From an uncultured Rhodospirillaceae bacterium (GTDB taxonomy: Bacteria; Pseudomonadota; Alphaproteobacteria; UBA828): a DNA stretch of 64,000 nt. The notes below the pieces were generated by a model, which was given only the letters and a program-made list of their open reading frames with translations, ran no database searches and was not told where the DNA came from. The stretch is from contig CAXEND010000001.1 of the NCBI GenBank assembly GCA_963997635.1, forward strand, positions 80,005 to 144,004. Direction: 5' to 3'. A program made the translations under genes and the position numbers. This document shows positions 34,906 through 57,518 of the stretch, piece after piece; the stretch's first letter is position 1, and each line of letters starts with the position of its first letter.

Positions 34906-34911
34906 TACTAG

Positions 34912-42649: not shown

Positions 42650-42732
42650 TATAATTTGTATGTGTAAAATAGACTTTGAGTTATGTTAAAATTCTATGAG
42701 ATTAATTCATATAATAGATAGGCAGGTATATC

Positions 42733-43014
42733 ATGGCATCAGCAACACCCACGCAACTGATAGATAATGACCGAGTAAGAGTTACTGAATGGAGATTTGG
42801 GCCTGGGGAGTCTACTGGTTATCACCGACATGAATTTGATTATGTTGTCGTACCAACAACTACAGGGGATCTACTTTTAAAAGAAGCGGATGGGGATCGT
42901 ACTGTTAGAATTGAGACTGGAGTCCCATACTTTAGAAATGAGGGAGTAGAGCATGATGTTATAAACCCAAGTCAAGAAAACGAAATTGTATTTGTAGAAG
43001 TTGAAATCAAATAA
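42733..43014 (+). CDS. Small cupin-domain protein
   Basis: 93 aa with a two-His cupin-like motif (GYHRHEFDYVVV ... GVEHDVIN). Confidence 0.5.
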   Translation: MASATPTQLIDNDRVRVTEWRFGPGESTGYHRHEFDYVVVPTTTGDLLLKEADGDRTVRIETGVPYFRNEGVEHDVINPSQENEIVFVEVEIK

Positions 43015-43069
43015 TTCAGGTTTTGTTAAGAAATACTAAAACTTTAATTATCAGGAGTCAGTTCAAGAG

Positions 43070-45286
43070 GTGAGTTTTTTACGTCGTGTTTTCCGTAGGT
43101 TTGGTTGGGTGCATCTCATTGCACTTGGCTTATTAGCTGCACTCATTGTTCTTAGAGTAGCAGACCCAGCACCTCTACAACTTCTTAGATCAAAAATATT
43201 TGACTTTTATCAACAGGTTGAACCAAGAGAGCGAAGTAGACAGCCCGTAGCAATAGTAGATATTGATGAGGAAAGTTTAAGGGACGTTGGTCAGTGGCCT
43301 TGGCCAAGGACAACTGTTGCACGGCTTCTTAATAATCTACGCAAATATGGGGCTGCAGGAGTGGCTTTTGACGTAGTGTTTGCTGAGCCAGATCGTACAT
43401 CTCCAAATCTAGTAGCAAAAAATATACGAGGCCTTGGAAAAAAAGCACGCCAAGAGCTGGAACGACTTCCTAGCAATGATGAAACATTTGCGAGGATTAT
43501 CAAGCGGAGTCCAGCAGTACTTGGTCAGGCCACAATAAATAGAAAAATTGTAAAAACAGAGAGAAAATCTTTAAAAGCGACATTTGGCTATAAGCAACCA
43601 AAAGGGGTTCAAGCAAAGAATTTTATGCTTTCGTATCCTGGCATTACTAGAAATTTAGAAATACTTGAGAATGCTACTCCTGGTATTGGAGTATTTACTT
43701 TTAAGCCTGCAGTTGATGGAATTGTTAGGCAAGTACCACTAGTTGTAAGAGTTGATAATCGGGTATATCCGACACTTTCTTTAGAACTCCTAAGAGTAGC
43801 CACAAAACAAAAAACTTTTGTTGTCAAGGCTAATCAGGCAGGGCTTCAATCTGTTGTTGTTGCAGGTCTAGAAATTCCTACTGACCAGAATGGACAAGTA
43901 TGGATGAAATTCGCCAAGCACGATAGAAATTTATATATTCCAGCAAAAGATGTATTAAACAAGACTATTTCAAAGGAACGTATTGCGGGGCATCTTTTAT
44001 TTATTGGAACTTCTGCTGCTGGCCTTCTTGATATTAAAGCAACTCCAGTTGACCCAGCAATTCCTGGTGTAGAGGTTCATGCTCAGCTTCTTCAGAATAT
44101 AATGGATAAAATATATTTGATTCGACCAGGTTGGGCTATTGGTGCTGAGGTTATAGCTTTAGGATTATCCGGATTACTCTTAATTGGCCTTATACCATTT
44201 TTAGGCTCGCTATGGACTTTAATTATTGGATTGACATCTATAATTGGATTAGTAGCGATAACTTGGTGGGCATACCAATCTTCAGGAATGCTCCTAGATT
44301 TAATTTATTCAGCGTTTTCGGTTTTCTTAATATATGTAGTTTTGACATTTTTAAATTACATGAGAGAAGAAAGAGAAAGACGGCAGGTCAAAGGTCAATT
44401 TAGTCATTATTTATCTCCAGATTTAGTAAAGCAGTTAGCTGATGATCCAACTCGATTAACTCTTGGCGGAGAGATGAAAGAAATGACTCTATTATTTGCT
44501 GATATTAGAGGCTTTACAACCATTAGTGAGCAATTTGATGCTGAAGGCTTAACACGCTTTATAAATCGATATTTGACACCTATGACTGAGGTGATATTAC
44601 AACGAAGAGGGACTATAGATAAATATATGGGTGATTGTATAATGGCATTTTGGAACGCCCCCATAGATGATCCTGATCATGCAAAAAATGGGGTTAGATC
44701 AGCACTCGCTATGTTCGAAGAGAGTGATAAGATGAATGAAGTATTGAAAGCTGAAGCAAAAGACGAAGGGAGAAAATATATACCTCTACGCATTGGTGCA
44801 GGACTCAATACGGGTGTCTGCTGTGTAGGTAATATGGGATCTGATATGCGTTTTGATTATTCTGTTTTAGGTGATGACGTTAACCTAGCAGCAAGATTAG
44901 AGGGACAATCAAAGACTTACGGCGTTAATATAGTCATAGGTGAAAAGACCTATAATGCTGTTCAAGATTTTGCTTGTCTTGAGCTTGATCGTATCCAGGT
45001 GAAAGGGAAAACTGTACCTGTCGATATATTTTGTGTCTTAGGAGATGAAAAGAGAGCACAAAGTCCAGAATTTAGAGCTATCAAATCACTTAATGAAAAT
45101 ATGATAACTGCTTATCGAAAACAGCAGTGGAAATTAGCTAATCAAAGAATTGAAGAATTAAAGGAAATTGACAAAAATAAAGAGCTAGAAGTTTTATGTG
45201 AACTTTATGAGCAAAGAATATCTTACTACAAAGAAAATCCGCCCGGCGATAAATGGGACGGATCCTTTATTGCTACTACAAAGTAA
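43070..45286 (+). CDS. CHASE2 sensor-domain adenylate/guanylate cyclase (class III)
   Basis: N-terminal TM, ~300-aa periplasmic domain, three closely spaced TMs, then a class III cyclase domain (LLFADIRGFT ... GDCIMAFW ... GLNTGVCCVGNMGS). Confidence 0.8.
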   Translation: MSFLRRVFRRFGWVHLIALGLLAALIVLRVADPAPLQLLRSKIFDFYQQVEPRERSRQPVAIVDIDEESLRDVGQWPWPRTTVARLLNNLRKYGAAGVAFDVVFAEPDRTSPNLVAKNIRGLGKKARQELERLPSNDETFARIIKRSPAVLGQATINRKIVKTERKSLKATFGYKQPKGVQAKNFMLSYPGITRNLEILENATPGIGVFTFKPAVDGIVRQVPLVVRVDNRVYPTLSLELLRVATKQKTFVVKANQAGLQSVVVAGLEIPTDQNGQVWMKFAKHDRNLYIPAKDVLNKTISKERIAGHLLFIGTSAAGLLDIKATPVDPAIPGVEVHAQLLQNIMDKIYLIRPGWAIGAEVIALGLSGLLLIGLIPFLGSLWTLIIGLTSIIGLVAITWWAYQSSGMLLDLIYSAFSVFLIYVVLTFLNYMREERERRQVKGQFSHYLSPDLVKQLADDPTRLTLGGEMKEMTLLFADIRGFTTISEQFDAEGLTRFINRYLTPMTEVILQRRGTIDKYMGDCIMAFWNAPIDDPDHAKNGVRSALAMFEESDKMNEVLKAEAKDEGRKYIPLRIGAGLNTGVCCVGNMGSDMRFDYSVLGDDVNLAARLEGQSKTYGVNIVIGEKTYNAVQDFACLELDRIQVKGKTVPVDIFCVLGDEKRAQSPEFRAIKSLNENMITAYRKQQWKLANQRIEELKEIDKNKELEVLCELYEQRISYYKENPPGDKWDGSFIATTK

Positions 45287-45354
45287 ATTTTTCAGGAAAA
45301 GATTATAACTCCTCAGCTGTGAATGTCTGGGTTGTGAGAAATTAGTAAATAAAA

Positions 45355-47082
45355 TCACTCGTAGGGCCAAAGTCGAGCAAAGTTTTCATCTTCATTAACA
45401 GAGATTATTTTCTGATTCTGTGTAGATCCAAGAACATTAGAATTATTCTTTTTAGACTTCGCAACAATAGGTTTTATAACCTTGGTTAATCCGCTTTCAT
45501 TTTTTGTAGAGAATAATTGTGATTCTTCAGTCAATATCTGAGTTTTTTGAGAGATGTTAATTTCTTTTATTTTCTTACCTGTATTTTGATGTTTAGCTAA
45601 AGGTAGAGTAACCTTTTGTTTAACAGTAAGTTTTTCATTAGTTGTAGTTTCTTTTATATTAATAGAAGTTTTTGTTTTTGTAGGCTTATCTAAAAGAGAA
45701 ATTTTATTTTTTTTTGGCAAAGATGCTAAATTTGTAGAATTTTCAAGCGTTAAGCGTCCCATCGTAACCATTAGTCGATATACTGCGATGCGTGCATCGT
45801 GTTGAGCAGATACTAAGTTAATTCTGGCGTTAAATAACTCACTTTCTGCACCTAAAACATTTATGACGGTCTCTTTTCCTGCATCGCGTAATTTTTTTCT
45901 AGCTTCAAACACTTCAGCTGCAATGTTTACTGCATTCTGTAATAATGAGACTCTTTCTCTTGCTGTTTTTAGTCCTGACCAGGCTAGACGTGACTCTTCG
46001 GTGATTTTTCTTTTTACAAAATTACCAGAGTCAATTGTTGCCTTATGATTAAATGCAGCTTGTGCAGCTCCTGCACGTGTGGCAAACCCATTAAATATGG
46101 TCCATGAGGCGTTTACTTTTGCTTTATAGTCTCGTCTAGTACCTCGAGTTCCACTCAGGTCATCTTCATAATTCCATTCGCCTGTGACGTCGATAGTTGG
46201 GAAATAGTCTGCCTTTGCTATACGTTTTGCAGCGTTAGCGATTGATGTTTGTGAGCTAGCGCTGAGAATTGCTGGGTTTTCAGATAATGCTATTTCTATT
46301 ACTTCCTCCACTGTTTCAGGTACAAGGCCAAGAGGTGGGGTGGGCATGACTAGATTCTGGGGATATGGTGCGTGACCAAAAACTTGTTCGTAACGGCTTA
46401 TAGAATCTTCAAGTTGCCCTTCAAAAGAAACTCTACGTTCTTTAGCTACTTGAAGTGTAGATTTTGATTGTAATACATCAACTGCAATCCCAGCTCCTCT
46501 TCTTACTCGTTCATCTTCTAATTCTAGCTGAAGTCGAATAGTTTCTTCATTATTGCTAGATAATCTGAATAATTTAAAGTTACGCATTACTTCTAAATAG
46601 ATAGAAATTGCCTCAAAAAGAATTCCTTGTTTACTTGTTTCTGCCGAATGTTGTGCAGCAATCATTCCCGCTTCTGCCGTTTCGTTATTTGCATCATTTC
46701 TGAATCCATTAAAAATTACTTGCGTAACGGTAATTTTTGCATTTCGTGCTTGCCCAGTTGTAAAGGGACTAGTGTTAGGGTCTGTGGCTGATCGTCTTCC
46801 AGGGCTATCTATACGTTCATAGCCAAAGTTTCCTGTTGCTTGGATTGTGGGTAAATATTCTGCCAAGGCAGATTTAATACCTTCTTTTGCAGAAAAAACA
46901 CCTGCTTCTGCAGCTTTAATTTGTGGATGATTCTCGAGGATTCCTGATAACTCCTCCTTAAGTGTTTCGCTGGAAGATGAAGATACTGACACTAAAGTTG
47001 CACTTGCAGTTAGTATGCTGATCCATAAACTTTTATGAATTAAGTTCCTCATTAAGCTTGCTCCAATAGAACTACTCGACAA
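45355..47082 (-). CDS. TolC-family outer-membrane channel protein with ~130-aa low-complexity C-terminal extension
   Basis: Signal peptide; TolC-type duplicated helical/beta repeat architecture (ENHPQIKAAEAGV...YLPTIQATGNFGY); C-terminal K/T/N-rich tail; last gene of the cytochrome operon. Confidence 0.75.
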   Translation of the reverse strand: MSSSSIGASLMRNLIHKSLWISILTASATLVSVSSSSSETLKEELSGILENHPQIKAAEAGVFSAKEGIKSALAEYLPTIQATGNFGYERIDSPGRRSATDPNTSPFTTGQARNAKITVTQVIFNGFRNDANNETAEAGMIAAQHSAETSKQGILFEAISIYLEVMRNFKLFRLSSNNEETIRLQLELEDERVRRGAGIAVDVLQSKSTLQVAKERRVSFEGQLEDSISRYEQVFGHAPYPQNLVMPTPPLGLVPETVEEVIEIALSENPAILSASSQTSIANAAKRIAKADYFPTIDVTGEWNYEDDLSGTRGTRRDYKAKVNASWTIFNGFATRAGAAQAAFNHKATIDSGNFVKRKITEESRLAWSGLKTARERVSLLQNAVNIAAEVFEARKKLRDAGKETVINVLGAESELFNARINLVSAQHDARIAVYRLMVTMGRLTLENSTNLASLPKKNKISLLDKPTKTKTSINIKETTTNEKLTVKQKVTLPLAKHQNTGKKIKEINISQKTQILTEESQLFSTKNESGLTKVIKPIVAKSKKNNSNVLGSTQNQKIISVNEDENFARLWPYE

Positions 47083-47214
47083 CAGTTGCTGATTTTATAC
47101 CTTACGAATCTATTAATAAATGAAATTTAGCAGAAGAACTTTATTTCACAAGTCACTAGGGTTTACGGCGTAATTTTATAGACCTTTTAAACTTCTATAT
47201 TCGGTTAGATATTT

Positions 47215-48495
47215 TTATGCGTCTAGAGTTAAATTACCTTTTGGTATTGCAATACAAGCAAGGCATGAACCCTCCTCTGGTTCAGCTCCCGGTGCATTTA
47301 GATATTCAACTTCACCATCCTTGATTGCTGTTATACAAGTCCCACAATTTCCTGCTCTACAGCCAAAATCTATATCTACATCATTATCTTCAGCAAAATC
47401 AAGTATTGCTCCGGAATCTGGATCCCAATCTAAAGTTTTACCAGATTTGGCAAATGTAAGTTTTAACCCTGCACTAGATATTGAGGCTTCTGTCGCCTCT
47501 TTGTTGGCTTCTGTTTTTGTTTTTTTAACTGTAGCAGGACCAAAAGCTTCAAAGTGAATATGTTTATTCGGCACACCCCACGCTTCTAGGTCAGGCACAA
47601 CGGTATTCATCATCGGTGGTGGGCCACACATATAGAAGTCATAATTACTTGAGGGTAAGACTTTCTTAAAAAGTTCTACAGAAACTCTTTCTGCATAAGC
47701 ATAGTCTTCGCCTTCGGTATCTTCCTCACCTGGTTTGGAGAAGCATATACACATATGAATATTTTCATGCTCTTTTCCAATTTGTTTTAGATGGTTAGCC
47801 ATCACAGCTTCTTTGCTGTTTCTTACTCCATAAAAAAACCAAGTTTCACGTTTTGATCCAGATTCAACAATATCATTTAACATCGAGAGTACTGGTGTTA
47901 ATCCGATACCTCCACCAATGAGAACAACGGGGGTTTGTTTTGTTCTATCAAGAAAAAAATGACCGCCTGGAGCCTTTATATCAAGGATATCACCCTCATT
48001 AATTTTATCATGGAAAAAATTTGATGAAAGGCCTGGTGGAGCATCTGGTTCGTCACGTGGCGGGGGGACACGTTTGATTGAACAGCGGTAGTAGTCTGGG
48101 TGGTTTGGACTGTCTGAAAGCGAGTAACATCTAATAACTTGTTTTTTTTGTTCAGGTATATCAAGTCCAAATGTGAGATATTGACCAGGGTTAAATGGTG
48201 GTAATGGCTTTCCATCATGAGGTGAAAAATAAAATGAGCAAATATCACCACCTTCAGGGATTTTTTTCTTGACCTGGAATTTACGAAATCCGTTCCAAGA
48301 GAGTTCCTCAGACTCTTTCTCGAACTTACGGCGATCCATAATTCTTTCAATTTCTTCACGAAATATTTTATCTTGTAGTGCAGAGCTTTTTGCCAGTAAA
48401 GCTTCACGTCTAAAATTGCCAACACCTGTAAAGAAAAGTGTTGCGGCAAGAATAGCTAGAAAGACTAGAGCGACAATATGAATAGCAGTTTCCAT
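47215..48495 (-). CDS. Membrane-anchored oxidoreductase: FNR-like flavin/NAD(P)-binding domains plus C-terminal plant-type 2Fe-2S ferredoxin domain
   Basis: N-terminal TM helix; flavin motif RCYSLSD; NAD(P) motif GGGIGLTPVLSML; C-terminal CRAGNCGTC...C cluster motif. Confidence 0.75.
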   Translation of the reverse strand: METAIHIVALVFLAILAATLFFTGVGNFRREALLAKSSALQDKIFREEIERIMDRRKFEKESEELSWNGFRKFQVKKKIPEGGDICSFYFSPHDGKPLPPFNPGQYLTFGLDIPEQKKQVIRCYSLSDSPNHPDYYRCSIKRVPPPRDEPDAPPGLSSNFFHDKINEGDILDIKAPGGHFFLDRTKQTPVVLIGGGIGLTPVLSMLNDIVESGSKRETWFFYGVRNSKEAVMANHLKQIGKEHENIHMCICFSKPGEEDTEGEDYAYAERVSVELFKKVLPSSNYDFYMCGPPPMMNTVVPDLEAWGVPNKHIHFEAFGPATVKKTKTEANKEATEASISSAGLKLTFAKSGKTLDWDPDSGAILDFAEDNDVDIDFGCRAGNCGTCITAIKDGEVEYLNAPGAEPEEGSCLACIAIPKGNLTLDA

Positions 48496-48566
48496 ATTCC
48501 GCGGCCCTCCCTAGAGCCGATAATCTGTTATAAGTCTAAATTAATTAAAAATTTGAATTATTAGCG

Positions 48567-50108
48567 TTAAAATTTGCGGCGTATTTCAAAGCGTGCTCCG
48601 GAAATGTTTTGCTCCTCTGTTCTCCATCCGTGCATTGCATCAGCTCTAAATAACCAAGCTTCATTGATATTTTGCTGGTAGCGTAAACCCAAGGCATATT
48701 CATCTCCGCGAAGGCTCCTACCTACCTCATTTTCTCCTTCAATGACTTGGTTTGTAGCTGCTTCAATGACGATTTGACGATCTAAATTGAAGAGATAACT
48801 AACTCCTATAGCTCCACCAAATGCATTCTGTCCGGTATCATTGAGTTTAGGAAATCCTGTTAACCCATCTGTTTCAAAGTTAATACCAGTATTCTTTAAT
48901 AATCCATCTGCTCTAGCTGCTGATTGAGGCCTGTCAATGCCTACAAAAAAGTTACCATAAGGGACCAGTGTTGAGGGTAGACTTGTAATCAGGGAGTTCT
49001 CAACTAATAAAATTAAACCATCAGCCGTATCTTGCAAGTTATTGTCTCTATCTTGTCCAAAAGACCATATTGCTCTTATGCTATTAGAAAGCAATGCTCC
49101 GTATCTTTTTGTATATGCAATTGTAGCACTATTATATGACTCGTCGTCGAATCCACCTTCTCCATCTAATCTAGCAAAACCAGCTTCCCAGTATGCTTCC
49201 ATAGCTTCTACAAATGTAGCTACTCCAAAGATATTGACGTTATGATCAGCATTTGCATTTTGATCATCTTTGAAAGCTTGATTTGTAACTTTGTCAAAGC
49301 CATAGAAAAAAGATATATCCATATTGGTTATGTCCAATAATGGACTGTTGAGTGAGGGAATAGCAGTTGCTACACCTGTGAAAGCATCCTCAATCCATAT
49401 CCCATTTTGGAATAAGAGTGGCATAAGGCCTAATGAAAAGGGAACGTCAAGACTGGAGTATTCACCGCTAAAGCCAGCGTAAAGTGCACCTGCATCTCCT
49501 TCAAAAAATAGTGCATCTAAATTTCCATCGATTTGTGCATCACATTTCTTATTGGGGTCATTATTTGGTGCATCGTCACCAAAAAACTCGCAACGGCTAA
49601 ACTCACCTTGTCCATCAAGTGGCCTTAAAATAGCATGGATTCTCTCAGTTCCAGTGAATTTATAATCAATATCTAAATTAAGCCTAGTAGCAACCTGTCC
49701 TACCTCAACATTTCCATTGTCATTAAAAGCCAGTGCACTACGCCAATCTCCATAAACATATAGCTCTGTGAAAGTAGGGTTCAACTCTCCAAGAGCATCA
49801 CCTCCTTCAACTAATGGTCCACCAGAATAAAGAGGATTTCCAATCTCTAATAGAGGTCTTGTGACAGGATAGGCTGATTTGCCACCATAAATTTGAAGTT
49901 GGGCTTCAATATCATACTCTTCTTCTGGGTAACTTGGATCAGCTCTAAATACACCTGCGTCATGTTCGACAATTTTTGAGCGTGTATCTTTTTTGATCTC
50001 GGCACCATTGGCAAGATTTTGTTCTGCAGCAAATGAAAATGTTAAACTTGCGGCAATACAAAATGGCAATAAATGGTATCCAGGAAAGTTTTGAATGATT
50101 TTTTTCAC
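48567..50108 (-). CDS. Putative outer-membrane beta-barrel protein (porin-like)
   Basis: Signal peptide; C-terminal Phe (…ARFEIRRKF); alternating hydrophobic beta-strand pattern. Sits between multiheme cytochrome genes and an oxidoreductase, 7 nt downstream of the pentaheme gene. Confidence 0.5.
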   Translation of the reverse strand: MKKIIQNFPGYHLLPFCIAASLTFSFAAEQNLANGAEIKKDTRSKIVEHDAGVFRADPSYPEEEYDIEAQLQIYGGKSAYPVTRPLLEIGNPLYSGGPLVEGGDALGELNPTFTELYVYGDWRSALAFNDNGNVEVGQVATRLNLDIDYKFTGTERIHAILRPLDGQGEFSRCEFFGDDAPNNDPNKKCDAQIDGNLDALFFEGDAGALYAGFSGEYSSLDVPFSLGLMPLLFQNGIWIEDAFTGVATAIPSLNSPLLDITNMDISFFYGFDKVTNQAFKDDQNANADHNVNIFGVATFVEAMEAYWEAGFARLDGEGGFDDESYNSATIAYTKRYGALLSNSIRAIWSFGQDRDNNLQDTADGLILLVENSLITSLPSTLVPYGNFFVGIDRPQSAARADGLLKNTGINFETDGLTGFPKLNDTGQNAFGGAIGVSYLFNLDRQIVIEAATNQVIEGENEVGRSLRGDEYALGLRYQQNINEAWLFRADAMHGWRTEEQNISGARFEIRRKF

Positions 50109-50115
50109 GGCTCTT

Positions 50116-51957
50116 CTATCCTTTTACTTCAAATTCAACCGTGTAGGCGTCAATGTCTAGCATCCATTCGTTCATTGCACGCTCCATTTCTTTTGTGGCG
50201 CCAACAAACCTCATGAAATAGATTGGCTCAGCTCTACTTCTCATCCTGATAGCCAATTTATATGTGCCTGGTTGTTTTATGAGCTTTCCTGGAACTGAGT
50301 AATCAGCATCACGGCTAGATAATGGGGGAAGACTTCGCCCCTCCATTCGAACAAAGGGTGGGTGATTTATAACGGTTGTAGGCTGTGATGCTGGCCGTAG
50401 GAATGGAAGCTGGTCTACATCAAAGTTTACCGGCAAATACATCTCACGATCTGTCCCTTTTACGTTTGTAGTTAAGAATTTAGTCTGTAAATTAACTAAT
50501 TGGTCATCATATGGGACCTTTCCAGATAAAACGTCTGCACTATGAAGGTCTGCCATATCTCCTGCAGAGTCGGTATATCCAGATTCCCAAATATTTGTTC
50601 CATCAGGTCCTATCAGTGCAACATTAACCCAGAGTTCTGGCTGAGCACCAAGAGAGCCTGAAGGTAGATTATGTCCCGAATTAGTGTTTGAAATTGTGTA
50701 AGTGAAGTCGAGATCATGGCCAATTTGAGGGTTGTCATCAAAGAATGGCCCATCGATGTGGGAACCATTTTCCATGACTTGTCTCCTCAATTCGCGTTTT
50801 TCTTCTATAAGCCCAATGTTATAGTTTATAATTTCCCTAGCTTCTTCCCTGTCAAAACGATCTTCCCAGACTTCTGGAAATTCTATTTCTTCTATTTCTC
50901 CAGAATCAACTAATTCTTCATAATTATCTTCCCAATCTTCTTCTCCCCATGGAGCTCGATAGTTAAACTGAAGCCATTCTTCCATGGTCCAGTTTTCAGC
51001 GTCTGGGTTATGAGGGAAAATACCAGGGTGTGCAATAGGGTATCCTGGACCTGCAAAGGCATGACTATGTCTAATCCTGTCAGGATTTACAGCACGCCCA
51101 TCTACAACCGCAGCTGGACCAGTTTTGAAATGACCTGCAACCCCAGGTTTGTAACTCATATGGCAGTCTTGACATGACACACCTTGAGCATGGGCAGGCG
51201 AATCACGATACTGATCCCAAACTACTTCAAGCTTAATTCCTAAATTAACAGCAACCTGATGACATGAAACGCAAAATTCTGATTGATTGAGCTGTGTAAA
51301 AATTTTGCCTTCATTATGAATTTGATTTCCGCGCTCATCAGAATTAGTGGCAACTTTCCAAGTGCTAGCATTCTCGACCACTTCTTTAATCCCATCGCCT
51401 CCTAAGACGCCGTATACAGGTTCAAATATTTCCCCCATCACAATATTTCTGGAACCATTTGCTTTTCCATATGCTGTATTTACGCGGTGGCAGGTAATAC
51501 AAGTAATACCTTCCCGGCTAACTTGTTTACGTTCCCACATAGGGAGTTCCCTAGCTTCGCCCATTTGTGTGCTTACTGTTGCATGGCAGCGAACACAGAA
51601 TGTATTTATTGTGGGAGCAAGTGAGTTAATTGCATTTTCAAATTTATGAAACATTGGAGAAAGTGAGGCGTAGGCATGGTTTGATGAAGCCCATTCTCTG
51701 TAGATATCCTCATGGCATGATTTACATTTTGATGCACTGGGAAATAAATCTTCATTCAAAATATCTGTGTGCATTTTATCGGCATCAATTGTTTCATTGT
51801 CACTTGCTTCTAAATCTCCAGAAACTGATGAGAATGCAAATAGTCCAATGAGACATAAAAAGACTGAAATTTTAGTTAAGGTTTTTTTCATCATAATTGT
51901 AGTTTTCTCATGATCAGAGAAAATACTGTTTTTAAATAATATACTTAACTTAGTCAT
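50116..51957 (-). CDS. Secreted pentaheme cytochrome c with large heme-free acidic C-terminal domain
   Basis: Five CxxCH motifs (CKSCH, CVRCH, CITCH, CVSCH, CQDCH) within the first ~265 residues, then ~350 residues with none. Alternative start at 51894 (MMKKTL..., classic signal peptide) would remove the 8-nt overlap with the decaheme gene. Confidence 0.8.
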   Translation of the reverse strand: MTKLSILFKNSIFSDHEKTTIMMKKTLTKISVFLCLIGLFAFSSVSGDLEASDNETIDADKMHTDILNEDLFPSASKCKSCHEDIYREWASSNHAYASLSPMFHKFENAINSLAPTINTFCVRCHATVSTQMGEARELPMWERKQVSREGITCITCHRVNTAYGKANGSRNIVMGEIFEPVYGVLGGDGIKEVVENASTWKVATNSDERGNQIHNEGKIFTQLNQSEFCVSCHQVAVNLGIKLEVVWDQYRDSPAHAQGVSCQDCHMSYKPGVAGHFKTGPAAVVDGRAVNPDRIRHSHAFAGPGYPIAHPGIFPHNPDAENWTMEEWLQFNYRAPWGEEDWEDNYEELVDSGEIEEIEFPEVWEDRFDREEAREIINYNIGLIEEKRELRRQVMENGSHIDGPFFDDNPQIGHDLDFTYTISNTNSGHNLPSGSLGAQPELWVNVALIGPDGTNIWESGYTDSAGDMADLHSADVLSGKVPYDDQLVNLQTKFLTTNVKGTDREMYLPVNFDVDQLPFLRPASQPTTVINHPPFVRMEGRSLPPLSSRDADYSVPGKLIKQPGTYKLAIRMRSRAEPIYFMRFVGATKEMERAMNEWMLDIDAYTVEFEVKG

Positions 51958-53923
51958 TATTAGTTACTCTCAGATTAAATCCTGTTTCATTATGATAGAG
52001 GTGGCATAACTGACAATCTTGCCTTACTTGTCCTTCATTATGACACTGAGTGCATGTTTCTTTATCTATCGAATCAAAGTTACTCTCAAATATATGCGGG
52101 TTGTTATCACTAAATGAAGCACCATAGTTAGCTTGGACATTTAATTTGTGGCAAGTTTGGCAGCCCGCTTCTGGATCAGCCAAATTTATACCACTTGGAT
52201 TGAGTATGTTTAAATGGGCTCCATGTGAATAAAACGTATGTGGTCTACTCTTTGAATTATTAAAGTTCCACTGTACATGTAAAGGGTTTGTTTCAGTTTC
52301 TGAAACAGAATGACACTTCGTACAGGCTCCAAAACCTTCCTTAGGATTAAGTAATTCGTCCCTCATAAACTCCCCAGACTCTTCAACATCCTCATCATCA
52401 TCAAGCACACTTAGAGCACCAAAGTTAATCCAAGCACGGACTACCGGATCTCCATGTCCAATAGGTTTATATTTTAACTCAACACCTTCTGCGTACCAAC
52501 CCCCATAATTTGGGTCAGAAGGTGACTCATATTCTTCATTAGATGCCCAAGCACATGCCACCTCTCTAGTAAGTGTTGGGCTCAGACCAGAGAGCATCTT
52601 TTTTGCGCCTTCGGCTCCAACTACTTCGGCAATTGTTTCCTCAAGAACTTCAGAGCCGTCTTCTAATAGACCTACAATCAAAGTCTGCAGTGGCTCTGTG
52701 TATTCAGAAGAGTCATCAATTGGTGTTCTAAGCAGATATGAACTGATAGCTGCTGGTTCGTCAAAAGAAACTGGTTCATATTCTTCTTCATCACCTATTA
52801 AAATTTCTTCATCAAGCATGTCTAATTCTTCTGCTTCAATTGCTTCACGCACTGTTGCTATATTATCTTGTATTTCTTCCCAAGCTTCAAGTGTGGGGCC
52901 ACAAGTTTCAGATACAAAATCTAAGTCAATAAAATTATCATCAAATTCAGGAAGCCTAAGTAATACTAGTTCACGACGAGGAATTGCATCATTATGGCAA
53001 CTTGCACATGCAGTTTGATATCCGACCGGCTTTACAGATTGCACGGCATCACTTACTTCATGACATGAAGTGCAGTTTGTTGGGGCAATATCTTCTAGTC
53101 TTTGATCTTTAAAATGTTGAGTTATATGGCTTGAATGATCAAAGCGTATTGCCGTACGTTGATCATGTGGAAAATCATCCGCAAAGTTTGGATGATTATT
53201 TGCAAAAGAAGAAATTTCTCTTTCATGGCAAGTATTACATTTTGCATCAGAAATAGCAGTTATATCAAAATCTTCTCCTTTGTGTTCAGAATGGCATGCA
53301 ATACAACTAAAATTATTGCTATGGGTGTTGGTCTTATTTGCATTGGAAGAAATATTGTGGGCCAGAAATGGTTCACCTACAAATGTGTGGCAATTTAAAC
53401 AATTTTTTGAAATATTGTTCTCTTCGAATGCAGCAAGAAACCATTCTCCAGCATCCTTTGCATGGGGTTCGTGGCAGGCAACACAACCGCTAGAGGAGGT
53501 AAAATTTGCGTGGCCGTCTGTTAATGGGCCAGCAGATGAAATTACATTATGTCCAGATCCATCACTTCCAAGGGTTAACATCAGGGCAATAACAGATATT
53601 ACAATTGCAAATGCACTTATAGCCATTAAACCTCTTAGGCTTCTAATACTTCTGCGTGGGCGACACGGTGGCTGATGTTGAGAGCATTTACCATCTGATC
53701 CAGGGCCATTGTCACATGGGCCTCCAAATAGTGTAGATCGCCTACATTCAAAGCGATCACCAACTTGTGCTGGTTGGCATTCATAGATACCACCACATTT
53801 GCCACTATTATCAGGGCCAAATTCACAAGGCTTCCCCCATTCAGCTGCTCTCCCACAACGAAATTTACGATTGGGTCGTTCGTAGCGGCTGATGTCATGC
53901 CTGAATTTATTTGGATCCATCAT
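51950..53923 (-). CDS. Membrane-anchored decaheme cytochrome c with cytoplasmic duplicated 4-Cys N-terminal module
   Basis: Ten CxxCH motifs (CVACH, CLNCH, CIACH, CNTCH, CTSCH, CASCH, CTKCH, CQTCH, CTQCH, CQLCH). Single TM helix preceded by an Arg-rich stretch. Start taken as ATG 53923, forming an ATGA overlap with the upstream stop, rather than the ORF-track start at 54007. Confidence 0.8.
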   Translation of the reverse strand: MMDPNKFRHDISRYERPNRKFRCGRAAEWGKPCEFGPDNSGKCGGIYECQPAQVGDRFECRRSTLFGGPCDNGPGSDGKCSQHQPPCRPRRSIRSLRGLMAISAFAIVISVIALMLTLGSDGSGHNVISSAGPLTDGHANFTSSSGCVACHEPHAKDAGEWFLAAFEENNISKNCLNCHTFVGEPFLAHNISSNANKTNTHSNNFSCIACHSEHKGEDFDITAISDAKCNTCHEREISSFANNHPNFADDFPHDQRTAIRFDHSSHITQHFKDQRLEDIAPTNCTSCHEVSDAVQSVKPVGYQTACASCHNDAIPRRELVLLRLPEFDDNFIDLDFVSETCGPTLEAWEEIQDNIATVREAIEAEELDMLDEEILIGDEEEYEPVSFDEPAAISSYLLRTPIDDSSEYTEPLQTLIVGLLEDGSEVLEETIAEVVGAEGAKKMLSGLSPTLTREVACAWASNEEYESPSDPNYGGWYAEGVELKYKPIGHGDPVVRAWINFGALSVLDDDEDVEESGEFMRDELLNPKEGFGACTKCHSVSETETNPLHVQWNFNNSKSRPHTFYSHGAHLNILNPSGINLADPEAGCQTCHKLNVQANYGASFSDNNPHIFESNFDSIDKETCTQCHNEGQVRQDCQLCHLYHNETGFNLRVTNND

Positions 53924-54735
53924 AATGCATACACATTTACGACTATTACGTGCCAAAAAATCAGTGCTAATACTGCAGCTGCTAATGGCACATGAGCTAG
54001 AAGCCAATATTTCATCATCGATTGACAGGCAAAATGAAAATCAATTTTCGATTTATATTTAGCAAGGTCGTTGAGATTATTTAGATATTCACGCTCAGCT
54101 TCGCTTAAATAACGTGACACTGTCTGGTAACTTTGGTTTATCCAATGTTCTGCTGCTGCACCGCCAAGAGTATGGCTAAGGAAAAACCTTGGACGCTGAA
54201 AATACCAGCGTAGTGATTCCATATAATGCCGAGCAAGAGTGTCACTACCTGTATTTTCTGTACAGGCAATTGTTATAGATTCTGATTTTTCTCTTAACTC
54301 TGAAAGTTCTGCTGGTATACGTTCATAAATAATTTCTAATTCAGTCTGAACAAGGCGTTTAGGGTATATTTTTTGTATAATGTATCCAAAAATTCCACTG
54401 ATGGTAACTAGATAAAATACTATCGCAAGTGCTTGTTCATATGCACCAGTTGGCCATACATTTCCTGTGTGAATGAAAAACAGACCCAGAGCTGCTATAC
54501 CGCCAACCACGTGAACTGCAAGCCAATAAGCAGATCTTCCAAAGGGAACCATAGATAGTTTTTTTCGTGCATTAAAAGTAGCTAGCCCTAGCATTAAACC
54601 AAAAAGCACATATCCTGTTATAAATTCTGGCTGACCAAGATTAATATTTGAAATTGAAGAGTATGTAGCAAAGGCAGCAATAAAAGCTGCACTAAATACC
54701 CACAGAATAATATAACGTGTGGTTACAGCATTCAT
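53920..54735 (-). CDS. Integral membrane protein, putative di-heme cytochrome b (NarI/DsrM-like)
   Basis: About 5 TM helices. Two TM segments each carry a His pair 13-14 residues apart (HVVGGIAALGLFFIH; HVPLAAAVLALIFWH), as in bis-heme b proteins. Start and stop are translationally coupled to both flanking genes. Confidence 0.5.
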   Translation of the reverse strand: MNAVTTRYIILWVFSAAFIAAFATYSSISNINLGQPEFITGYVLFGLMLGLATFNARKKLSMVPFGRSAYWLAVHVVGGIAALGLFFIHTGNVWPTGAYEQALAIVFYLVTISGIFGYIIQKIYPKRLVQTELEIIYERIPAELSELREKSESITIACTENTGSDTLARHYMESLRWYFQRPRFFLSHTLGGAAAEHWINQSYQTVSRYLSEAEREYLNNLNDLAKYKSKIDFHFACQSMMKYWLLAHVPLAAAVLALIFWHVIVVNVYAL

Positions 54736-56405
54736 ACCTTAACCCCTGTAAAGGTCTCCTCACCCTGAAAGTTAACACGCCTAAGTGCATCATGCGGGCA
54801 TGCTCTTACACATGCTGGTCCACCTGGGTTGTTTGAACACAGGTCACATTTTGTAGCCTTGCTGATAGGCTTTTGTGTGCCTGGATCCCTGAGTGGTTGA
54901 CCCTTTAAATCTCGAATTTCAACTAATCTTATATTATTGTATGGACAAGAATTTGCGCATGTCCCACAGCCTATACATGTATCATCATTAATTACTACTG
55001 CCCCAGAATCTAGAGAACGATGGATTGCCCCTGTCGGGCATCCAATCATGCAAACTGGATCTTCGCAATGCATGCATGCGTTTGTAACCATCCAATTATC
55101 AAATGTTCTACCATGCCTTATAAACCTTGGATTTCCACCATGTGTAGAGGCACAGGCTCTAACACAATCGTCGCAGCGAACACAACGCTCAAGGTCAATA
55201 AGCATTGCCATAGTACCATTAATAAAGCGTTGATCCAGTGCCCATTCCATTGGGGCATCTGCTTCCATTGATTTTGATAAAGATGGTGTTAACAGTGGTT
55301 TAGGGTTATCCTTAATTTTTGGGAAAACATATTTTTCTATAATAGGTGCGGGAACTCTGAGTATATCTACGTAACCAAGAGCAGAAAGAGAAGTTTGAAG
55401 TGATTGTTCCCCAGTAGTTTTATTGGCCCATAATTCATCAAAGCCAAAATAATCTCCTGCTCCTAGATACGTTAGTGTGCGTTGTCCCGTCCCCATTTTT
55501 ATTGATACTCTTGCAAAACCAGCTCGAACCATTAGTAGACCATCCGGATAATTACCTTGTTTAGCTATAATTGGTTCTTCAGCAGATTTTCCTTGTTCAC
55601 GCATACGTTTATATGAAACGTTCCAATCAAAACTACCAAAAGTTTCAAAAAGTGTTGAGTTAGCTACTTCCTCCAATTCTTCTGGTTCTAGATCAGAAAA
55701 TAAAGGTGTTTCCTTCAAGTGAACTTTTAATGCATTTTCTCTGTAGCGTTCATCAATTTTACGGCGCCATTCAGTGTCATATTTTCTGATCTCTCTCAGA
55801 CCTTGCCACCTAATCTCTAGAAGTTCAGCGTCATTTTCAGCAAAAATACTGGCAGTTCTTGGCACACGTCCTAGAGCTGCTAATTCTCCAAAAAGTGCAC
55901 CAGATTCAAGTTCTGCTGTTTGATGGCTATTTAGAACAGCGGGAATATCTTGAATAAAAACATGCGATGATGTCAGATCCCCAGAGTCTGGATCACGGAG
56001 TGCTTGTGATCCATAACGTGAAGTATCTCGTAATTCTGGTTCTGATGAATTTGTCCAGAGCTGGCTTAGTGCCTCAATAAAATTACGTTTTTTAGTAGAC
56101 TCTCTGCCTATCATTGAGCGAGGTAGACTTGGGTTTATAACCACCCTCACTTTCCCGCTAATTACAAGGAACGCTGAGTTCCCATAGTCTCCTTCTCGAA
56201 CTACTATATCTCCTGATTTGTATTTCATAATTCTGGTATCGTTTTCTAAGATACCAGAAAGTGGGGTATGCTTTGGAAAACTTTCAGAGTCTATCGCTCT
56301 AAATTCTGGTAAATTTAGAAGTTTTTCAACTTCTGTTTCAGTCATTTCGGGGCCAAAAGGTGCTTCCCATCGCTGCGGGCGTGCCATCATTGCAACTGTA
56401 GACAA
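54732..56405 (-). CDS. Cytoplasmic protein with two cyclic-nucleotide-binding domains fused to a four-cluster [4Fe-4S] ferredoxin module (DmsB/NrfC-like)
   Basis: Two cNMP-binding-like segments (…GDIVVREGDYGNSAFLVISGKVRV…; …GLLMVRAGFARVS…GAGDYFGFDEL…). Four cluster motifs (CVRCDDCVRAC; CMHCEDPVCMIGCP; CIGCGTCANSCP; CDLCSNNPGGPACVRACP). No signal or TAT peptide. Confidence 0.8.
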   Translation of the reverse strand: MSTVAMMARPQRWEAPFGPEMTETEVEKLLNLPEFRAIDSESFPKHTPLSGILENDTRIMKYKSGDIVVREGDYGNSAFLVISGKVRVVINPSLPRSMIGRESTKKRNFIEALSQLWTNSSEPELRDTSRYGSQALRDPDSGDLTSSHVFIQDIPAVLNSHQTAELESGALFGELAALGRVPRTASIFAENDAELLEIRWQGLREIRKYDTEWRRKIDERYRENALKVHLKETPLFSDLEPEELEEVANSTLFETFGSFDWNVSYKRMREQGKSAEEPIIAKQGNYPDGLLMVRAGFARVSIKMGTGQRTLTYLGAGDYFGFDELWANKTTGEQSLQTSLSALGYVDILRVPAPIIEKYVFPKIKDNPKPLLTPSLSKSMEADAPMEWALDQRFINGTMAMLIDLERCVRCDDCVRACASTHGGNPRFIRHGRTFDNWMVTNACMHCEDPVCMIGCPTGAIHRSLDSGAVVINDDTCIGCGTCANSCPYNNIRLVEIRDLKGQPLRDPGTQKPISKATKCDLCSNNPGGPACVRACPHDALRRVNFQGEETFTGVKV

Positions 56406-56582
56406 CTTATTTCCCCCTTGACTAAAACTTCATAAAGCCAAATTCATTTAACTGGTATTAACCACTAATAAAACACAAATCTTCTAGCCTGAATAAATAG
56501 AGTAAAAACTAATGAATATCTTTTCCTAGCATTAGGTCCAATAAACCTTAGACTTTAGCTATTTAGTCCATTAAGCATTTAA

Positions 56583-57518
56583 TTATTTAAACTCGGTAGG
56601 AAGTAAGCCTCCGACAGTTCCAGATAGATCCTGATCTTTTATAGCTGCAGTTAATGCTACTGCATTTTCTCTGTTTGGGTTTTCTATTAATGTTTTCGCT
56701 GCATCAACTCCAGAAAGAGCTGCTCGAGCGGCTTCGGCACGGGCTTGTTGGAATTCAATAAATTTAGGAGAACCAGACCTACTTATTGCTATTGTAGCCG
56801 ATACAAGCTTAGCAGCTTGTCCTACTACAAATGCACGGCTCATTTCGGCAGGTGTCATTTCGGCATTTTTTGTCATATCTGGCGGATAAAAACGATGTCT
56901 TATACTACCTTGGCTATATTTGACGTATTCCCAGTCAGGTTTAGCGGGATGACCATTTTCTAGCATTATAGCTAATTTTTCTGGATCTATGTTTGCATTT
57001 GCAAGTCCATGACACTCATTACAGTTTTCTGCTATTCCATAGCGGTCAAAAGACCATCGCATTCCAGCAGCCGTTGCTGCAACAATTCTTTCATCCTTCG
57101 GCTCTGCTCTATTATTATGAATTGTAAACCAATCAGACGATGCCCCGTGACAGCTTTCGCAGGACGGGCCAGCTTTTGGTTTTGCTTTTGCGGCGGATGC
57201 TGCGTCTTTGGCTACCAAGGTATAGTGGCATTGAACACATGTTTCATTCTTTTTCATGCTTTTATTACCAGTAGCCTTTGCGAGTGCTTTTGCTAACTTA
57301 CTTTTATGGACTTTTTTAAAGGATTTTGCGTGTTTGGTTTCTTCCCAAATCTGAAACTCAGCTTTGTGGCATTCAGCACACTTTTTGGGTCCTTGGTTAA
57401 ATGGCTCTGCCATAGATTGTCCAGATAAAATTACAGCTCCACCAAGTATTAAAAACATACCAGCTATTGCTGCGACTATTATTTTATTTTGCAATGAGAA
57501 CATCTTTGCCTTCCCCAA
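56583..57518 (-). CDS. Membrane-anchored tetraheme cytochrome c
   Basis: N-terminal signal-anchor; four CxxCH motifs (CAECH, CVQCH, CESCH, CNECH); Ala/Lys-rich C-terminal region; first gene of the operon. Confidence 0.75.
   Translation of the reverse strand: MGKAKMFSLQNKIIVAAIAGMFLILGGAVILSGQSMAEPFNQGPKKCAECHKAEFQIWEETKHAKSFKKVHKSKLAKALAKATGNKSMKKNETCVQCHYTLVAKDAASAAKAKPKAGPSCESCHGASSDWFTIHNNRAEPKDERIVAATAAGMRWSFDRYGIAENCNECHGLANANIDPEKLAIMLENGHPAKPDWEYVKYSQGSIRHRFYPPDMTKNAEMTPAEMSRAFVVGQAAKLVSATIAISRSGSPKFIEFQQARAEAARAALSGVDAAKTLIENPNRENAVALTAAIKDQDLSGTVGGLLPTEFK

What the first reader, a model, noticed from the sequence alone, without database searches (positions are those of the whole stretch)
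43070..45286. CHASE2 sensor nucleotide cyclase encoded convergently, 69 nt from the operon that contains the cNMP-binding FeS protein
A membrane sensor cyclase (extracytoplasmic CHASE2 domain plus class III cyclase) ends at 45286. The TolC gene of the cytochrome operon ends at 45355 on the opposite strand. Co-localisation of a cNMP-producing sensor with a cNMP-binding redox subunit (54732-56405) suggests a dedicated second-messenger circuit controlling electron flow in response to an extracellular cue.
Basis: inference. Interest (0 to 1): 0.6.

Follow-up and report, generated by a model that had tools for sequence, protein, structure and literature searches.

The report
Sensor adenylyl cyclase beside cytochrome island
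The gene is a real membrane sensor enzyme that most likely makes cyclic AMP, but it sits next to the cytochrome gene cluster mainly because that cluster was inserted beside an older cyclase–TolC gene pair, so a dedicated signalling circuit is possible but not shown.

Summary
The ORF at 43070-45286 (+) is real. It encodes a 738-aa protein with an N-terminal TM helix, a periplasmic CHASE2 domain, a TM bundle and a class III cyclase domain. All six catalytic residues are present and invariant in 22 orthologues. The substrate pair is Lys518/Ser598, as in class IIIb adenylyl cyclases (best solved match P. aeruginosa CyaB), so it should make cAMP, not cGMP.

The neighbouring "cytochrome operon" is the published ptd cluster (here ptdDEFGABC, 47215-57518), whose function is unknown. 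Its PtdE subunit has a canonical cNMP phosphate-binding cassette, with Gly-Glu and Arg kept in 84/84 homologues, so the receptor half of the idea holds.

The dedicated-circuit half is weak.
- TolC is the cyclase's own conserved neighbour, not a ptd gene.
- A related genome (L005) keeps BipA-cupin-cyclase-TolC-ADH-GreA-CarB but lacks ptd.
- Among 80 PtdE-anchored genomes from many phyla, the CHASE2 cyclase appears only in the nearest alphaproteobacterial relatives.

Two observations keep the idea alive: the adjacency persists down to 56% cyclase identity, and a distant CHASE2 paralogue (L147) and an FHA-cyclase (L069) also lie beside ptd.

Verdict: an ordinary member of a known cyclase family, and a plausible but unproven cAMP input to ptd.

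The parts
43070..45286 (+). CHASE2 receptor adenylyl cyclase gene (738 aa, GTG start; AGGAG lies 12 nt upstream)
   Evidence: ORF. Pfam CHASE2 plus Guanylate_cyc. Full-length orthologues at 49-87% identity in 22 sequences.
43094..43186 (+). N-terminal transmembrane segment (aa 9-39)
   Evidence: Kyte-Doolittle 19-residue scan.
43136..44179 (+). Periplasmic CHASE2 sensor domain (aa 23-370)
   Evidence: PF05226, E 3.9e-57. Invariant motifs such as GQWPWPR and GTSAxGLxD across orthologues.
44129..44362 (+). Membrane-spanning bundle after CHASE2 (aa 354-431, probably three helices)
   Evidence: Hydropathy segments 354-402 and 405-431.
44474..45013 (+). Class III cyclase catalytic domain (aa 469-648). 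Residues: D478 (44501-44503), K518 (44621-44623), D522 (44633-44635), S598 (44861-44863), N605 (44882-44884), R609 (44894-44896).
   Evidence: PF00211, E 6e-22. Alignment to P. aeruginosa CyaB 3r5g, E 7e-41. These residues are invariant in A2.
45047..45283 (+). Conserved C-terminal tail of about 80 aa, with no Pfam match, ending WDGxFxATxK
   Evidence: Invariant Y682, W687, L709, R716, P725, W729, G731, A735, K738 in 22 orthologues. No Pfam hit.
45287..45354 (.). 68-nt convergent intergenic spacer between the cyclase and tolC
   Evidence: Sequence. No terminator-like hairpin beyond chance: fold z = 0.19 and nothing in the scan.
45355..47082 (-). tolC-family outer-membrane channel gene. The likely true start is ATG at 47052. 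It carries a K/T/S-rich C-terminal extension of about 115 aa. It is the conserved neighbour of the cyclase.
   Evidence: TIGR01844 and PF02321. Translation. Retained next to cyclase orthologues with and without ptd.
47215..57518 (-). ptd cluster, in the order ptdD (56583-57518), ptdE (54732-56405), ptdF (53920-54735), ptdG (51950-54007), ptdA (50116-51957), ptdB (48567-50108), ptdC (47215-48495). This is context, not part of the cyclase unit.
   Evidence: Pfam. CXXCH counts of 4, 10 and 5 and four invariant His in PtdF. Published description in bioRxiv 10.1101/2023.11.21.568154.
55851..55889 (-). Phosphate-binding cassette of PtdE CNB-1 (GELAALGRVPRTA, aa 173-185). This is the only cNMP-receptor motif in the 64-kb window and the candidate target for cAMP.
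   Evidence: Six-frame regex scan. Conservation in 25 and in 84 homologues. Alignment to PKG/PKA cassettes.

Best explanation
The gene encodes a homodimeric, membrane-anchored receptor adenylyl cyclase. A periplasmic CHASE2 domain senses an unknown extracytoplasmic cue. The signal passes through the TM bundle to a cytoplasmic class IIIb-type catalytic domain that converts ATP to cAMP. Each chain carries all six catalytic residues, so the dimer has two symmetric active sites. This much is shown at sequence level; enzymatic activity and the ligand are inferred. The gene is a vertically inherited core gene of a marine and freshwater alphaproteobacterial lineage. Its stable genomic partner is the convergent tolC gene. 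The ptd cytochrome cluster beyond tolC is an accessory, widely distributed island that sits between tolC and the ADH-GreA-CarB backbone in this lineage. cAMP from this cyclase probably feeds a cell-wide pool. PtdE, whose first CNB domain is intact in every homologue examined, may be one reader of that pool. The adjacency reflects lineage history rather than a dedicated two-gene circuit.
For: - Architecture and catalytic residues.
- AC type: K518/S598, compared with E/G in the Cya2 guanylyl cyclase 2w01. Class IIIb is defined by replacement of the substrate Asp with Thr (PMC2613629).
- Core-gene status: more than 6,600 homologues with E <= 1e-20 were returned. Full-length relatives at 49-64% identity are common in sequences labelled Alphaproteobacteria or Rhodospirillales, including Terasakiella and Caenispirillum.
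- TolC as the conserved neighbour: it lies convergently after the cyclase in window, L001, L004, L005, L094 and the P0044 contig. The same pair flanks ptd in L010, L014, L017 and L018. It is also convergent in distant relatives L120, L128, L132 and L144 (41-47% identity), with a remnant in L006.
- ptd presence or absence on one backbone: L005 carries BipA, cupin, cyclase, TolC, ADH, GreA and CarB at 54-66% identity in the same order, without ptd or the TPP gene. L010 carries ptd between TolC and Lactamase_B_2/TPP.
- ptd without the cyclase: at least 578 species genomes encode PtdE. Of 32 loci with at least 6 ptd genes and at least 2.2 kb on both flanks, only L017 and L018 have the CHASE2 cyclase.
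- An RND pump elsewhere in the window (23177-27602) gives TolC an obvious separate role.
Against: - In 64 kb, the only class III cyclase and the only cNMP-binding motif lie 9.4 kb apart.
- The adjacency survives to 56% cyclase identity, in the P0044 contig.
- A CHASE2 cyclase from a different branch of the family lies 5 kb from ptdC in L147. L020 and L022 probably share this layout, because their gdh genes are 92% and 85% identical to L147's.
- An FHA-cyclase lies 11 nt after ptdG in a planctomycete, L069.
- PtdE-anchored loci reach only about 2 kb past ptdC in the alphaproteobacterial gene order, so cyclases 2-6 kb away would have been missed.
- Whole genomes were not available, so I could not test whether L005 has ptd elsewhere or how many other cyclases or CNB proteins exist.
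Confidence: 0.6

Rival explanations
1. Dedicated circuit. The CHASE2 cyclase senses an extracellular cue and makes cAMP. cAMP binds CNB-1 of the cytoplasmic FeS protein PtdE. This switches electron flow along the path NAD(P)H, PtdC (FNR-like, 2Fe-2S), PtdE (four [4Fe-4S] motifs), PtdF (two b haems), periplasmic PtdD/PtdG, and the outer-membrane PtdA/PtdB.
For: - The PtdE CNB-1 cassette is canonical and universally kept. It aligns with PKG/PKA cassettes, and the tandem-CNB fold matches PKG I beta 4z07.
- The cyclase is predicted to be active and to make cAMP.
- It is the only producer-receptor pair in the window.
- The adjacency is kept in window, L001, L004, L010, L014, L017, L018, L019, L094 and the P0044 contig.
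- Cyclases of other types recur beside ptd in L147 and L069.
- The electron path is supported by four invariant His in PtdF (76/76), the absence of a signal peptide or TM segment in PtdE, and an N-terminal TM anchor on PtdC.
Against: - The cyclase, with intact catalytic residues, persists where ptd is absent from the same backbone (L005) and in L006, L093 and Terasakiella.
- ptd occurs without any nearby cyclase in most lineages.
- In the L147 subfamily the conserved unit is TPR-FecR-cyclase-GAF/HD. L176, L153, L154, L158 and L170 lack ptd.
- About 589 kb of ptd flanks hold only two unrelated cyclases, roughly background.
- The genes are convergent, so they are not co-transcribed.
- The RTA cassette does not discriminate cAMP from cGMP (own knowledge: HCN channels also have RTA).
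Confidence: 0.25
2. The cyclase belongs functionally with the outer-membrane protein encoded next to it. [quoted passage not shown]
For: The convergent cyclase-tolC pair is kept from 41% to 100% cyclase identity. The Terasakiella locus has a Crp-like regulator (cNMP_binding plus HTH_Crp_2) 6 kb from the cyclase, and a T1SS ABC/HlyD pair immediately upstream. The S. meliloti precedent is in PMC13001267.
Against: TolC is a general efflux and secretion channel, not an NsrA homologue, and the window has an RND pump that needs it. No Crp-like protein is encoded in the 64-kb window. TolC is lost or degraded next to the cyclase in L006 and L093. Persistence of a convergent pair may be neutral.
Confidence: 0.1
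3. The enzyme is a guanylyl cyclase, or is catalytically dead and serves only as a CHASE2 receptor scaffold.
For: The specificity position carries Ser rather than the Asp (IIIa) or Thr (IIIb) of characterised ACs. No enzyme of exactly this K/S type was found characterised in the searches done here.
Against: The Lys (not Glu) is invariant. The metal Asp pair, Asn and Arg are all invariant. The best solved match is a bona fide AC at E 7e-41, whereas the GC Cya2 has E and G at the two positions.
Confidence: 0.05

Closest known systems
Sinorhizobium meliloti CyaD1 / CyaD2 / CyaK (CHASE2 receptor adenylate cyclases acting through Clr)
   Same: Both are alphaproteobacterial and have the same CHASE2 plus class III cyclase architecture. 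Both presumably sense an extracytoplasmic cue and produce cAMP (PMC13001267; Pfam).
   Different: No Clr/Crp-like regulator or NsrA-type gene was found in the window. The ligand is unknown. The organism is a free-living marine bacterium rather than a plant symbiont. No direct sequence comparison with CyaD1 was done.
Pseudomonas aeruginosa CyaB catalytic domain (PDB 3r5g), class IIIb adenylyl cyclase
   Same: It is the best solved-structure match (E 7.4e-41 over aa 18-208 of the query fragment). The motifs FxDIRGFT, IDKxxGD and DY[TS]xxGxxVNLAxRLE are shared.
   Different: CyaB has Thr at the specificity position where the window protein has Ser. From memory, CyaB has a different N-terminal membrane sensor (MASE2) rather than CHASE2. 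The conserved 80-aa C-terminal tail is specific to the window's family.
ptdABCDEFG porin-cytochrome cluster of Alphaproteobacteria order UBA11136 (Elbon et al., bioRxiv 10.1101/2023.11.21.568154)
   Same: The neighbouring cluster matches gene for gene: pentahaem PtdA, porin PtdB, FAD/NAD(P) oxidoreductase PtdC, tetrahaem PtdD, cNMP-binding FeS PtdE, ferric-reductase-like PtdF and decahaem PtdG.
   Different: The paper does not mention a cyclase, TolC or CHASE2. It credits PtdE with two 4Fe-4S clusters, whereas 16 invariant Cys in four CxxCxxCxxxC(P)-type motifs suggest four. The cyclase is not part of that cluster.
TPR-FecR-CHASE2 cyclase-GAF/HD_5 gene group (L147, L170, L176)
   Same: The cyclase has the same full-length architecture at 46% identity. 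In L147 it also lies near ptdC.
   Different: It sits on a different branch of the family tree. It is co-directional with its own conserved partners (FecR-like, TPR-like, GAF-HD), none of which flank the window's cyclase. ptd is absent in L176, L153, L154, L158 and L170.

Membership tests
Class III nucleotidyl cyclase (PF00211) | Catalytic domain scoring above the curated cut-off | tested here: met
   78.6 bits against a cut-off of 21.9, aa 469-648. 43 PDB cyclase sequences match at E <= 1e-5.
Class III nucleotidyl cyclase (PF00211) | Two metal-binding Asp plus transition-state Asn and Arg in one chain (homodimer type) | tested here: met
   D478, D522, N605 and R609 align with CyaB 3r5g and are invariant in 22 orthologues.
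Adenylyl (not guanylyl) cyclase, subclass IIIb | Substrate Lys present, with the substrate Asp replaced by Thr | tested here: inconclusive
   K518 is invariant. The second position is Ser598 (invariant), a conservative variant of the Thr that defines IIIb (PMC2613629). The GC Cya2 has Glu and Gly at these positions. The AC assignment is strong, but strict IIIb membership rests on treating Ser as equivalent to Thr.
Adenylyl (not guanylyl) cyclase, subclass IIIb | cAMP synthesis in vitro and stimulation by CO2 or bicarbonate | not testable with these tools
   This needs an enzyme assay.
CHASE2 sensor proteins (PF05226) | CHASE2 domain flanked by an N-terminal TM and a C-terminal TM bundle, followed by a cytoplasmic output domain | tested here: met
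   194 bits against a cut-off of 26.3, aa 23-370. TM segments at aa 9-39 and 354-431. The cyclase output domain follows.
S. meliloti CyaD1/D2/K-Clr-NsrA pathway | Crp-family cAMP-dependent regulator (Clr) acting as the receptor | tested here: not met
   The 64-kb window has no CRP-like hit and no phosphate-binding cassette other than PtdE's. The rest of the genome was not available.
S. meliloti CyaD1/D2/K-Clr-NsrA pathway | NsrA-type outer-membrane beta-barrel required for signal perception | not tested
   No NsrA sequence was at hand. The adjacent outer-membrane gene belongs to the TolC family.
ptd porin-cytochrome cluster | The cyclase or TolC is a conserved component of the cluster | tested here: not met
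   Neither is in the published definition. A TolC hit was found in 5 of 57 informative PtdE-anchored loci and the CHASE2 cyclase in 4 of 57 (L014, L017, L018, L019; L069 has an unrelated FHA-cyclase). The cyclase and TolC occur together without ptd in L005.
ptd porin-cytochrome cluster | PtdE carries a functional-looking cNMP site | tested here: met
   In CNB-1, G173, E174 and R183 are kept in 84/84 sequences, T/S184 in 73/84 and A185 in 77/84. CNB-2 has the Arg in only 31/84, and it is Ser in the window.

The most novel reading that the evidence does not exclude
cAMP made by a periplasm-sensing CHASE2 cyclase binds the tandem-CNB module of PtdE and directly gates an NAD(P)H-driven, quinone-independent electron conduit across both membranes (PtdC, PtdE, PtdF, then the multihaem/porin complex). 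That would be a second messenger acting allosterically on a respiratory or extracellular electron-transfer FeS subunit rather than on transcription.
Probability: 0.2. Interest if true: 0.7.

Novelty: new member of a known kind. Interest (0 to 1): 0.32.

Why it matters
On its own, the cyclase is one more CHASE2 adenylyl cyclase. The useful result concerns ptd, a cluster highly transcribed in ocean oxygen-deficient zones and of unknown function. Its PtdE subunit carries a universally conserved cyclic-nucleotide site, so ptd is probably under second-messenger control in at least 578 species. This cyclase is one concrete candidate source in one lineage. That makes direct experiments possible, such as cAMP or cGMP binding to PtdE and the effect of the nucleotide on NAD(P)H-to-cytochrome electron transfer. 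The negative result also matters, because it shows that gene adjacency here mostly reflects the insertion history of an accessory island.

Tried and rejected
- Promoter and terminator scan of 42600-48700, and folding of the 68-nt spacer. Nothing exceeded chance, so these give no evidence on whether tolC is transcribed with ptdC.
- NCBIfam scan of the cyclase: no family matched.
- Supplementary tables of the ptd paper, searched for cyclase, Crp, TolC and CHASE2: nothing found. No follow-up paper on ptd was found.
- Placing the partial cyclases of L017, L018 and L019 in the family tree using only the C-terminal 253 columns. The tree was unresolved, with all distances between 0.35 and 0.39. I therefore do not claim which subfamily they belong to.
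- AlphaFold2 model of PtdE from 25 sequences. Mean pLDDT was 58.5 and the FeS half was below 50. I used it only to confirm the tandem-CNB resemblance, not for any mechanistic detail.
- Guanylyl cyclase reading: rejected on the basis of the Lys and the alignment to Cya2.
- "Three CNB domains" in PtdE: rejected. There are two, and the first is split by an insert.
- The reading that the ptd-cyclase link is totally absent outside the window's clade. I softened this after finding L147, L019 and L069, and after realising that PtdE-anchored loci reach only about 2 kb past ptdC.
Full report
**Observation**

The ORF at 43070-45286 (+) is real. It has a GTG start preceded by AGGAG, encodes 738 aa and ends with TAA. 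Pfam finds CHASE2 (E 3.9e-57, aa 23-370) and the class III cyclase domain (E 6e-22, aa 469-648). A hydropathy scan places one TM segment at aa 9-39 and a TM bundle at aa 354-431. This is the usual CHASE2 topology, with the sensor outside the cytoplasm and the cyclase inside. A TolC-family gene ends at 45355 on the opposite strand, 68 nt away. The protein at 54732-56405 (-) does combine cNMP-binding and 4Fe-4S domains.

**What the cyclase is**

The catalytic domain's best solved relative is the adenylyl cyclase CyaB of P. aeruginosa (3r5g, E 7e-41). In that alignment the window protein has:
- FADIRGFT, which carries metal Asp478;
- IDKYMGD, which carries substrate Lys518 and metal Asp522;
- DYSVLGDDVNLAARLE, which carries Ser598 at the Asp/Thr specificity position, plus Asn605 and Arg609.

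The guanylyl cyclase Cya2 (2w01) has Glu and Gly at the two specificity positions. All six residues are invariant in 22 full-length orthologues at 49-87% identity. Class IIIb is defined partly by replacement of the substrate Asp with Thr, and every prokaryotic IIIb enzyme tested so far responds to inorganic carbon (PMC2613629). Ser is a conservative variant of that Thr. I therefore call the protein an adenylyl cyclase of IIIb type. Activity and CO2 response are inferred, not shown. An 80-aa C-terminal tail ending WDGxFxATxK is conserved in the family and matches no Pfam model. The closest characterised proteins with the same architecture are the S. meliloti CHASE2 cyclases CyaD1/D2/K. These signal through the Crp-like regulator Clr and the outer-membrane protein NsrA (PMC13001267).

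**What the neighbouring "operon" is**

The minus-strand cluster 47215-57518 is the ptd cluster, described in 2024 from Alphaproteobacteria order UBA11136 in an oxygen-deficient zone (bioRxiv 10.1101/2023.11.21.568154). Its components are pentahaem PtdA, porin PtdB, FAD/NAD(P) oxidoreductase PtdC, tetrahaem PtdD, cNMP-binding FeS protein PtdE, ferric-reductase-like PtdF and decahaem PtdG. Its function is unknown. In the window the order is D-E-F-G-A-B-C. CXXCH counts are 4, 10 and 5.

Several features bear on how electrons might move through it:
- PtdF has four His invariant in 76/76 homologues (H75/H89 and H248/H262), the pattern expected for two transmembrane b haems.
- PtdE has no signal peptide or TM segment.
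- PtdC has an N-terminal TM anchor.
- PtdE has 16 invariant Cys in four ferredoxin-type motifs.

Together these fit an inferred path from cytoplasmic NAD(P)H through PtdC, PtdE and PtdF to the periplasmic and outer-membrane cytochromes. The paper does not mention a cyclase, TolC or CHASE2.

**Is the receptor intact?**

PtdE has two CNB domains. CNB-1 is split by a poorly conserved insert of about 60 aa, which is why Pfam reports three stretches. The CNB-1 phosphate-binding cassette is FGELAALGRVPRTA. Across 84 homologues from loci labelled Alpha-, Beta- and Gammaproteobacteria, Nitrospinota, Planctomycetota, Verrucomicrobiota, Elusimicrobia, Acidobacteriota and others, conservation is as follows:
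- Gly173, Glu174 and Arg183 are kept in 84/84;
- Thr/Ser184 is kept in 73/84;
- Ala185 is kept in 77/84.

The cassette aligns with those of PKG and PKA. A low-confidence AF2 model (mean pLDDT 58.5, with CNB parts at 70-90) matches the tandem CNB-A/B of PKG I beta (E 9e-16). CNB-2 has the Arg in only 31/84, and it is Ser in the window. An RTA cassette does not tell cAMP from cGMP (own knowledge).

**Co-occurrence, from the cyclase side**

Contexts of orthologues fall into two groups.

With cyclase, convergent TolC and then ptd:
- P0002 (87% identity);
- P0006 (64%);
- P0034 (61%, from a Lake Tanganyika sample);
- P0044 (56%).

Without ptd:
- P0041 (59%, L005), which has cyclase and convergent TolC followed by Lactamase_B_2, ADH, ABM, GreA and CarB;
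- P0045 (54%), which has no ptd and only a 113-aa TolC fragment;
- P0047 (53%), which has neither;
- Terasakiella (51%), which has an MCP gene and then a convergent TolC, a Crp-like regulator 6 kb away, and no ptd.

A tblastn comparison shows that L005 shares BipA, cupin, cyclase, TolC, ADH, GreA and CarB with the window at 54-66% identity and in the same order. L010 has ptd between TolC and Lactamase_B_2/TPP on that same backbone. ptd is therefore a presence/absence block inside a conserved backbone. The cyclase keeps all its catalytic residues where the block is missing. Among 80 more distant CHASE2 cyclases from metagenomes (40-64% identity), four again have a convergent TolC immediately downstream, and only one (L147) has ptd genes within 10 kb.

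**Co-occurrence, from the ptd side**

A scan of one genome per species found at least 578 genomes with a PtdE relative, and 80 loci were fetched. Fifty-six carry all seven ptd genes. Of 32 loci with at least 6 ptd genes and at least 2.2 kb on both flanks, only L017 and L018 have the CHASE2 cyclase. Over all 80 loci it occurs in L014, L017, L018 and L019. All four are among the closer alphaproteobacterial relatives by PtdE identity (65-69%), although L013 (73%) and L015-L016 (67-68%) rank as high or higher without a detected cyclase. L014, L017 and L018 also have a TolC hit, and L017 and L018 share the TPP gene, whereas L019 shows neither. A profile for the cyclase domain finds only two other cyclases in about 589 kb of ptd flanks. 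One is an FHA-cyclase lying convergently 11 nt after ptdG in a Tepidisphaeraceae genome (L069). The other lies 10 kb away in L065. By my rough estimate this is about background density.

**A caveat that cuts the other way**

In the alphaproteobacterial gene order, the PtdE-anchored loci reach only about 2 kb beyond ptdC. L147 shows what could be missed. Its order is ptdA-B-C, gdh, a TPR protein, a FecR-domain protein, a CHASE2 cyclase (46% identical to the window's, co-directional) and a GAF-HD_5 protein. The gdh genes after ptdC in L020 and L022 are 92% and 85% identical to L147's, so those genomes probably share the layout. In L019, gdh lies between ptdC and a convergent cyclase.

In a full-length neighbour-joining tree, the L147 cyclase sits on a different major branch from the window's clade. 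This looks like a second, separate juxtaposition. Within that branch, however, the conserved unit is TPR-FecR-cyclase-GAF/HD. L176 (63% identity to L147's cyclase) and L153, L154, L158 and L170 have no ptd within 10 kb. The recurrence is suggestive but narrow.

**Other points**

Within the 64-kb window there is no second cyclase and no second phosphate-binding cassette. The window also encodes an RND pump (MFP 23177-24439, AcrB 24477-27602), which gives TolC an independent role. Promoter and terminator scans and folding of the spacer give nothing above chance.

**Conclusion**

The cyclase is an ordinary, probably active member of the CHASE2 class III adenylyl cyclase family. It is a core gene whose stable neighbour is tolC. 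The ptd island next to it very likely responds to a cyclic nucleotide through PtdE in every lineage that has it, and in this lineage the adjacent cyclase is one reasonable source.

Comparative evidence does not support a dedicated, co-inherited two-component circuit:
- each partner occurs widely without the other;
- the genes are convergent;
- each cyclase subfamily has other, more constant neighbours.

My probabilities are about 0.6 for incidental adjacency with a general cAMP role, 0.25 for a real functional input to PtdE, 0.1 for a TolC/outer-membrane-linked role, and 0.05 for a non-AC or inactive enzyme.

Noticed in passing
window 45355-47082 and cyclase loci L005, L008, L094, L120, L128, L132, L144: A convergent CHASE2-cyclase/tolC gene pair recurs from 41% to 100% cyclase identity, with or without ptd. 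[quoted passage not shown] Whether the TolC pairing has any functional meaning is open.
   Followed up: partly
window 45047-45283: The cyclase family has a conserved C-terminal tail of about 80 aa (invariant Y682, W687, R716, P725, W729, G731, K738, ending WDGxFxATxK). It matches no Pfam model and its function is unknown.
   Followed up: partly
window 54771-55208 (PtdE aa 400-545): PtdE has 16 invariant Cys in four ferredoxin-type motifs, like the four-cluster DmsB/NrfC/PsrB subunits. The ptd paper credits it with two 4Fe-4S clusters.
   Followed up: partly
window 53920-54735 (PtdF): Four His (H75, H89, H248, H262; each pair 14 residues apart) are invariant in 76/76 homologues. This fits a di-haem-b transmembrane electron conduit between cytoplasmic PtdE and the periplasmic cytochromes.
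   Followed up: yes
window 45355-45700 (TolC C-terminus): TolC carries a Lys/Thr/Ser-rich low-complexity C-terminal extension of about 115 aa. TolC length next to cyclase orthologues varies from 435 to 660 aa. The listed TTG start at 47082 is probably wrong, since ATG at 47052 gives a normal signal peptide.
   Followed up: partly
L147 6817-14029; L176 5998-14014; L170: A separate conserved gene group exists: a TPR-like protein, a FecR-domain protein, a CHASE2 cyclase and a GAF+HD_5 phosphohydrolase. It looks like a self-contained cyclic-nucleotide module, comprising sensor accessories, a cyclase and a possible phosphodiesterase.
   Followed up: partly
L069 10308-11486 (-): In a Tepidisphaeraceae (Planctomycetota) genome, an FHA-domain class III cyclase lies convergently 11 nt after ptdG. 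Other planctomycete ptd loci (L050, L058, L066, L071, L080) lack it.
   Followed up: partly
L006 12410-12748: A 113-aa TolC fragment (58% identical to the window's TolC C-terminal part) sits directly after the cyclase orthologue. It appears to be a decayed remnant of the ancestral pair.
   Followed up: no
window 34201-37849; L004 8855-9913; L005 5408-9876; L094 5955-8918; L008 197-1602: Phosphate-related genes (PstS-like PBP_like_2, PhoX, PhoB-like response regulator, PhoU, LMW phosphatase) repeatedly lie upstream of the cyclase orthologues. In the window, a PBP_like_2/ABC set with a di-haem DHOR protein lies 5-9 kb upstream.
   Followed up: no
window 51950-54007 (PtdG): The listed TTG start at 54007 overlaps ptdF by 88 nt and gives an odd Ser/Cys-rich N-terminus. 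The real start is probably further downstream, before the signal-anchor at aa 121-152.
   Followed up: no
L011 10001-15671; L012 10001-15776: Reduced ptd versions exist that contain only PtdE, PtdF, one multihaem cytochrome and the PtdC-like reductase, with no porin or pentahaem protein. This suggests that the four-gene inner-membrane module is the core unit.
   Followed up: no
L020, L022, L031, L049, L147, L019: A glutamate dehydrogenase gene often follows ptdC in marine Alphaproteobacteria, in place of tolC.
   Followed up: partly
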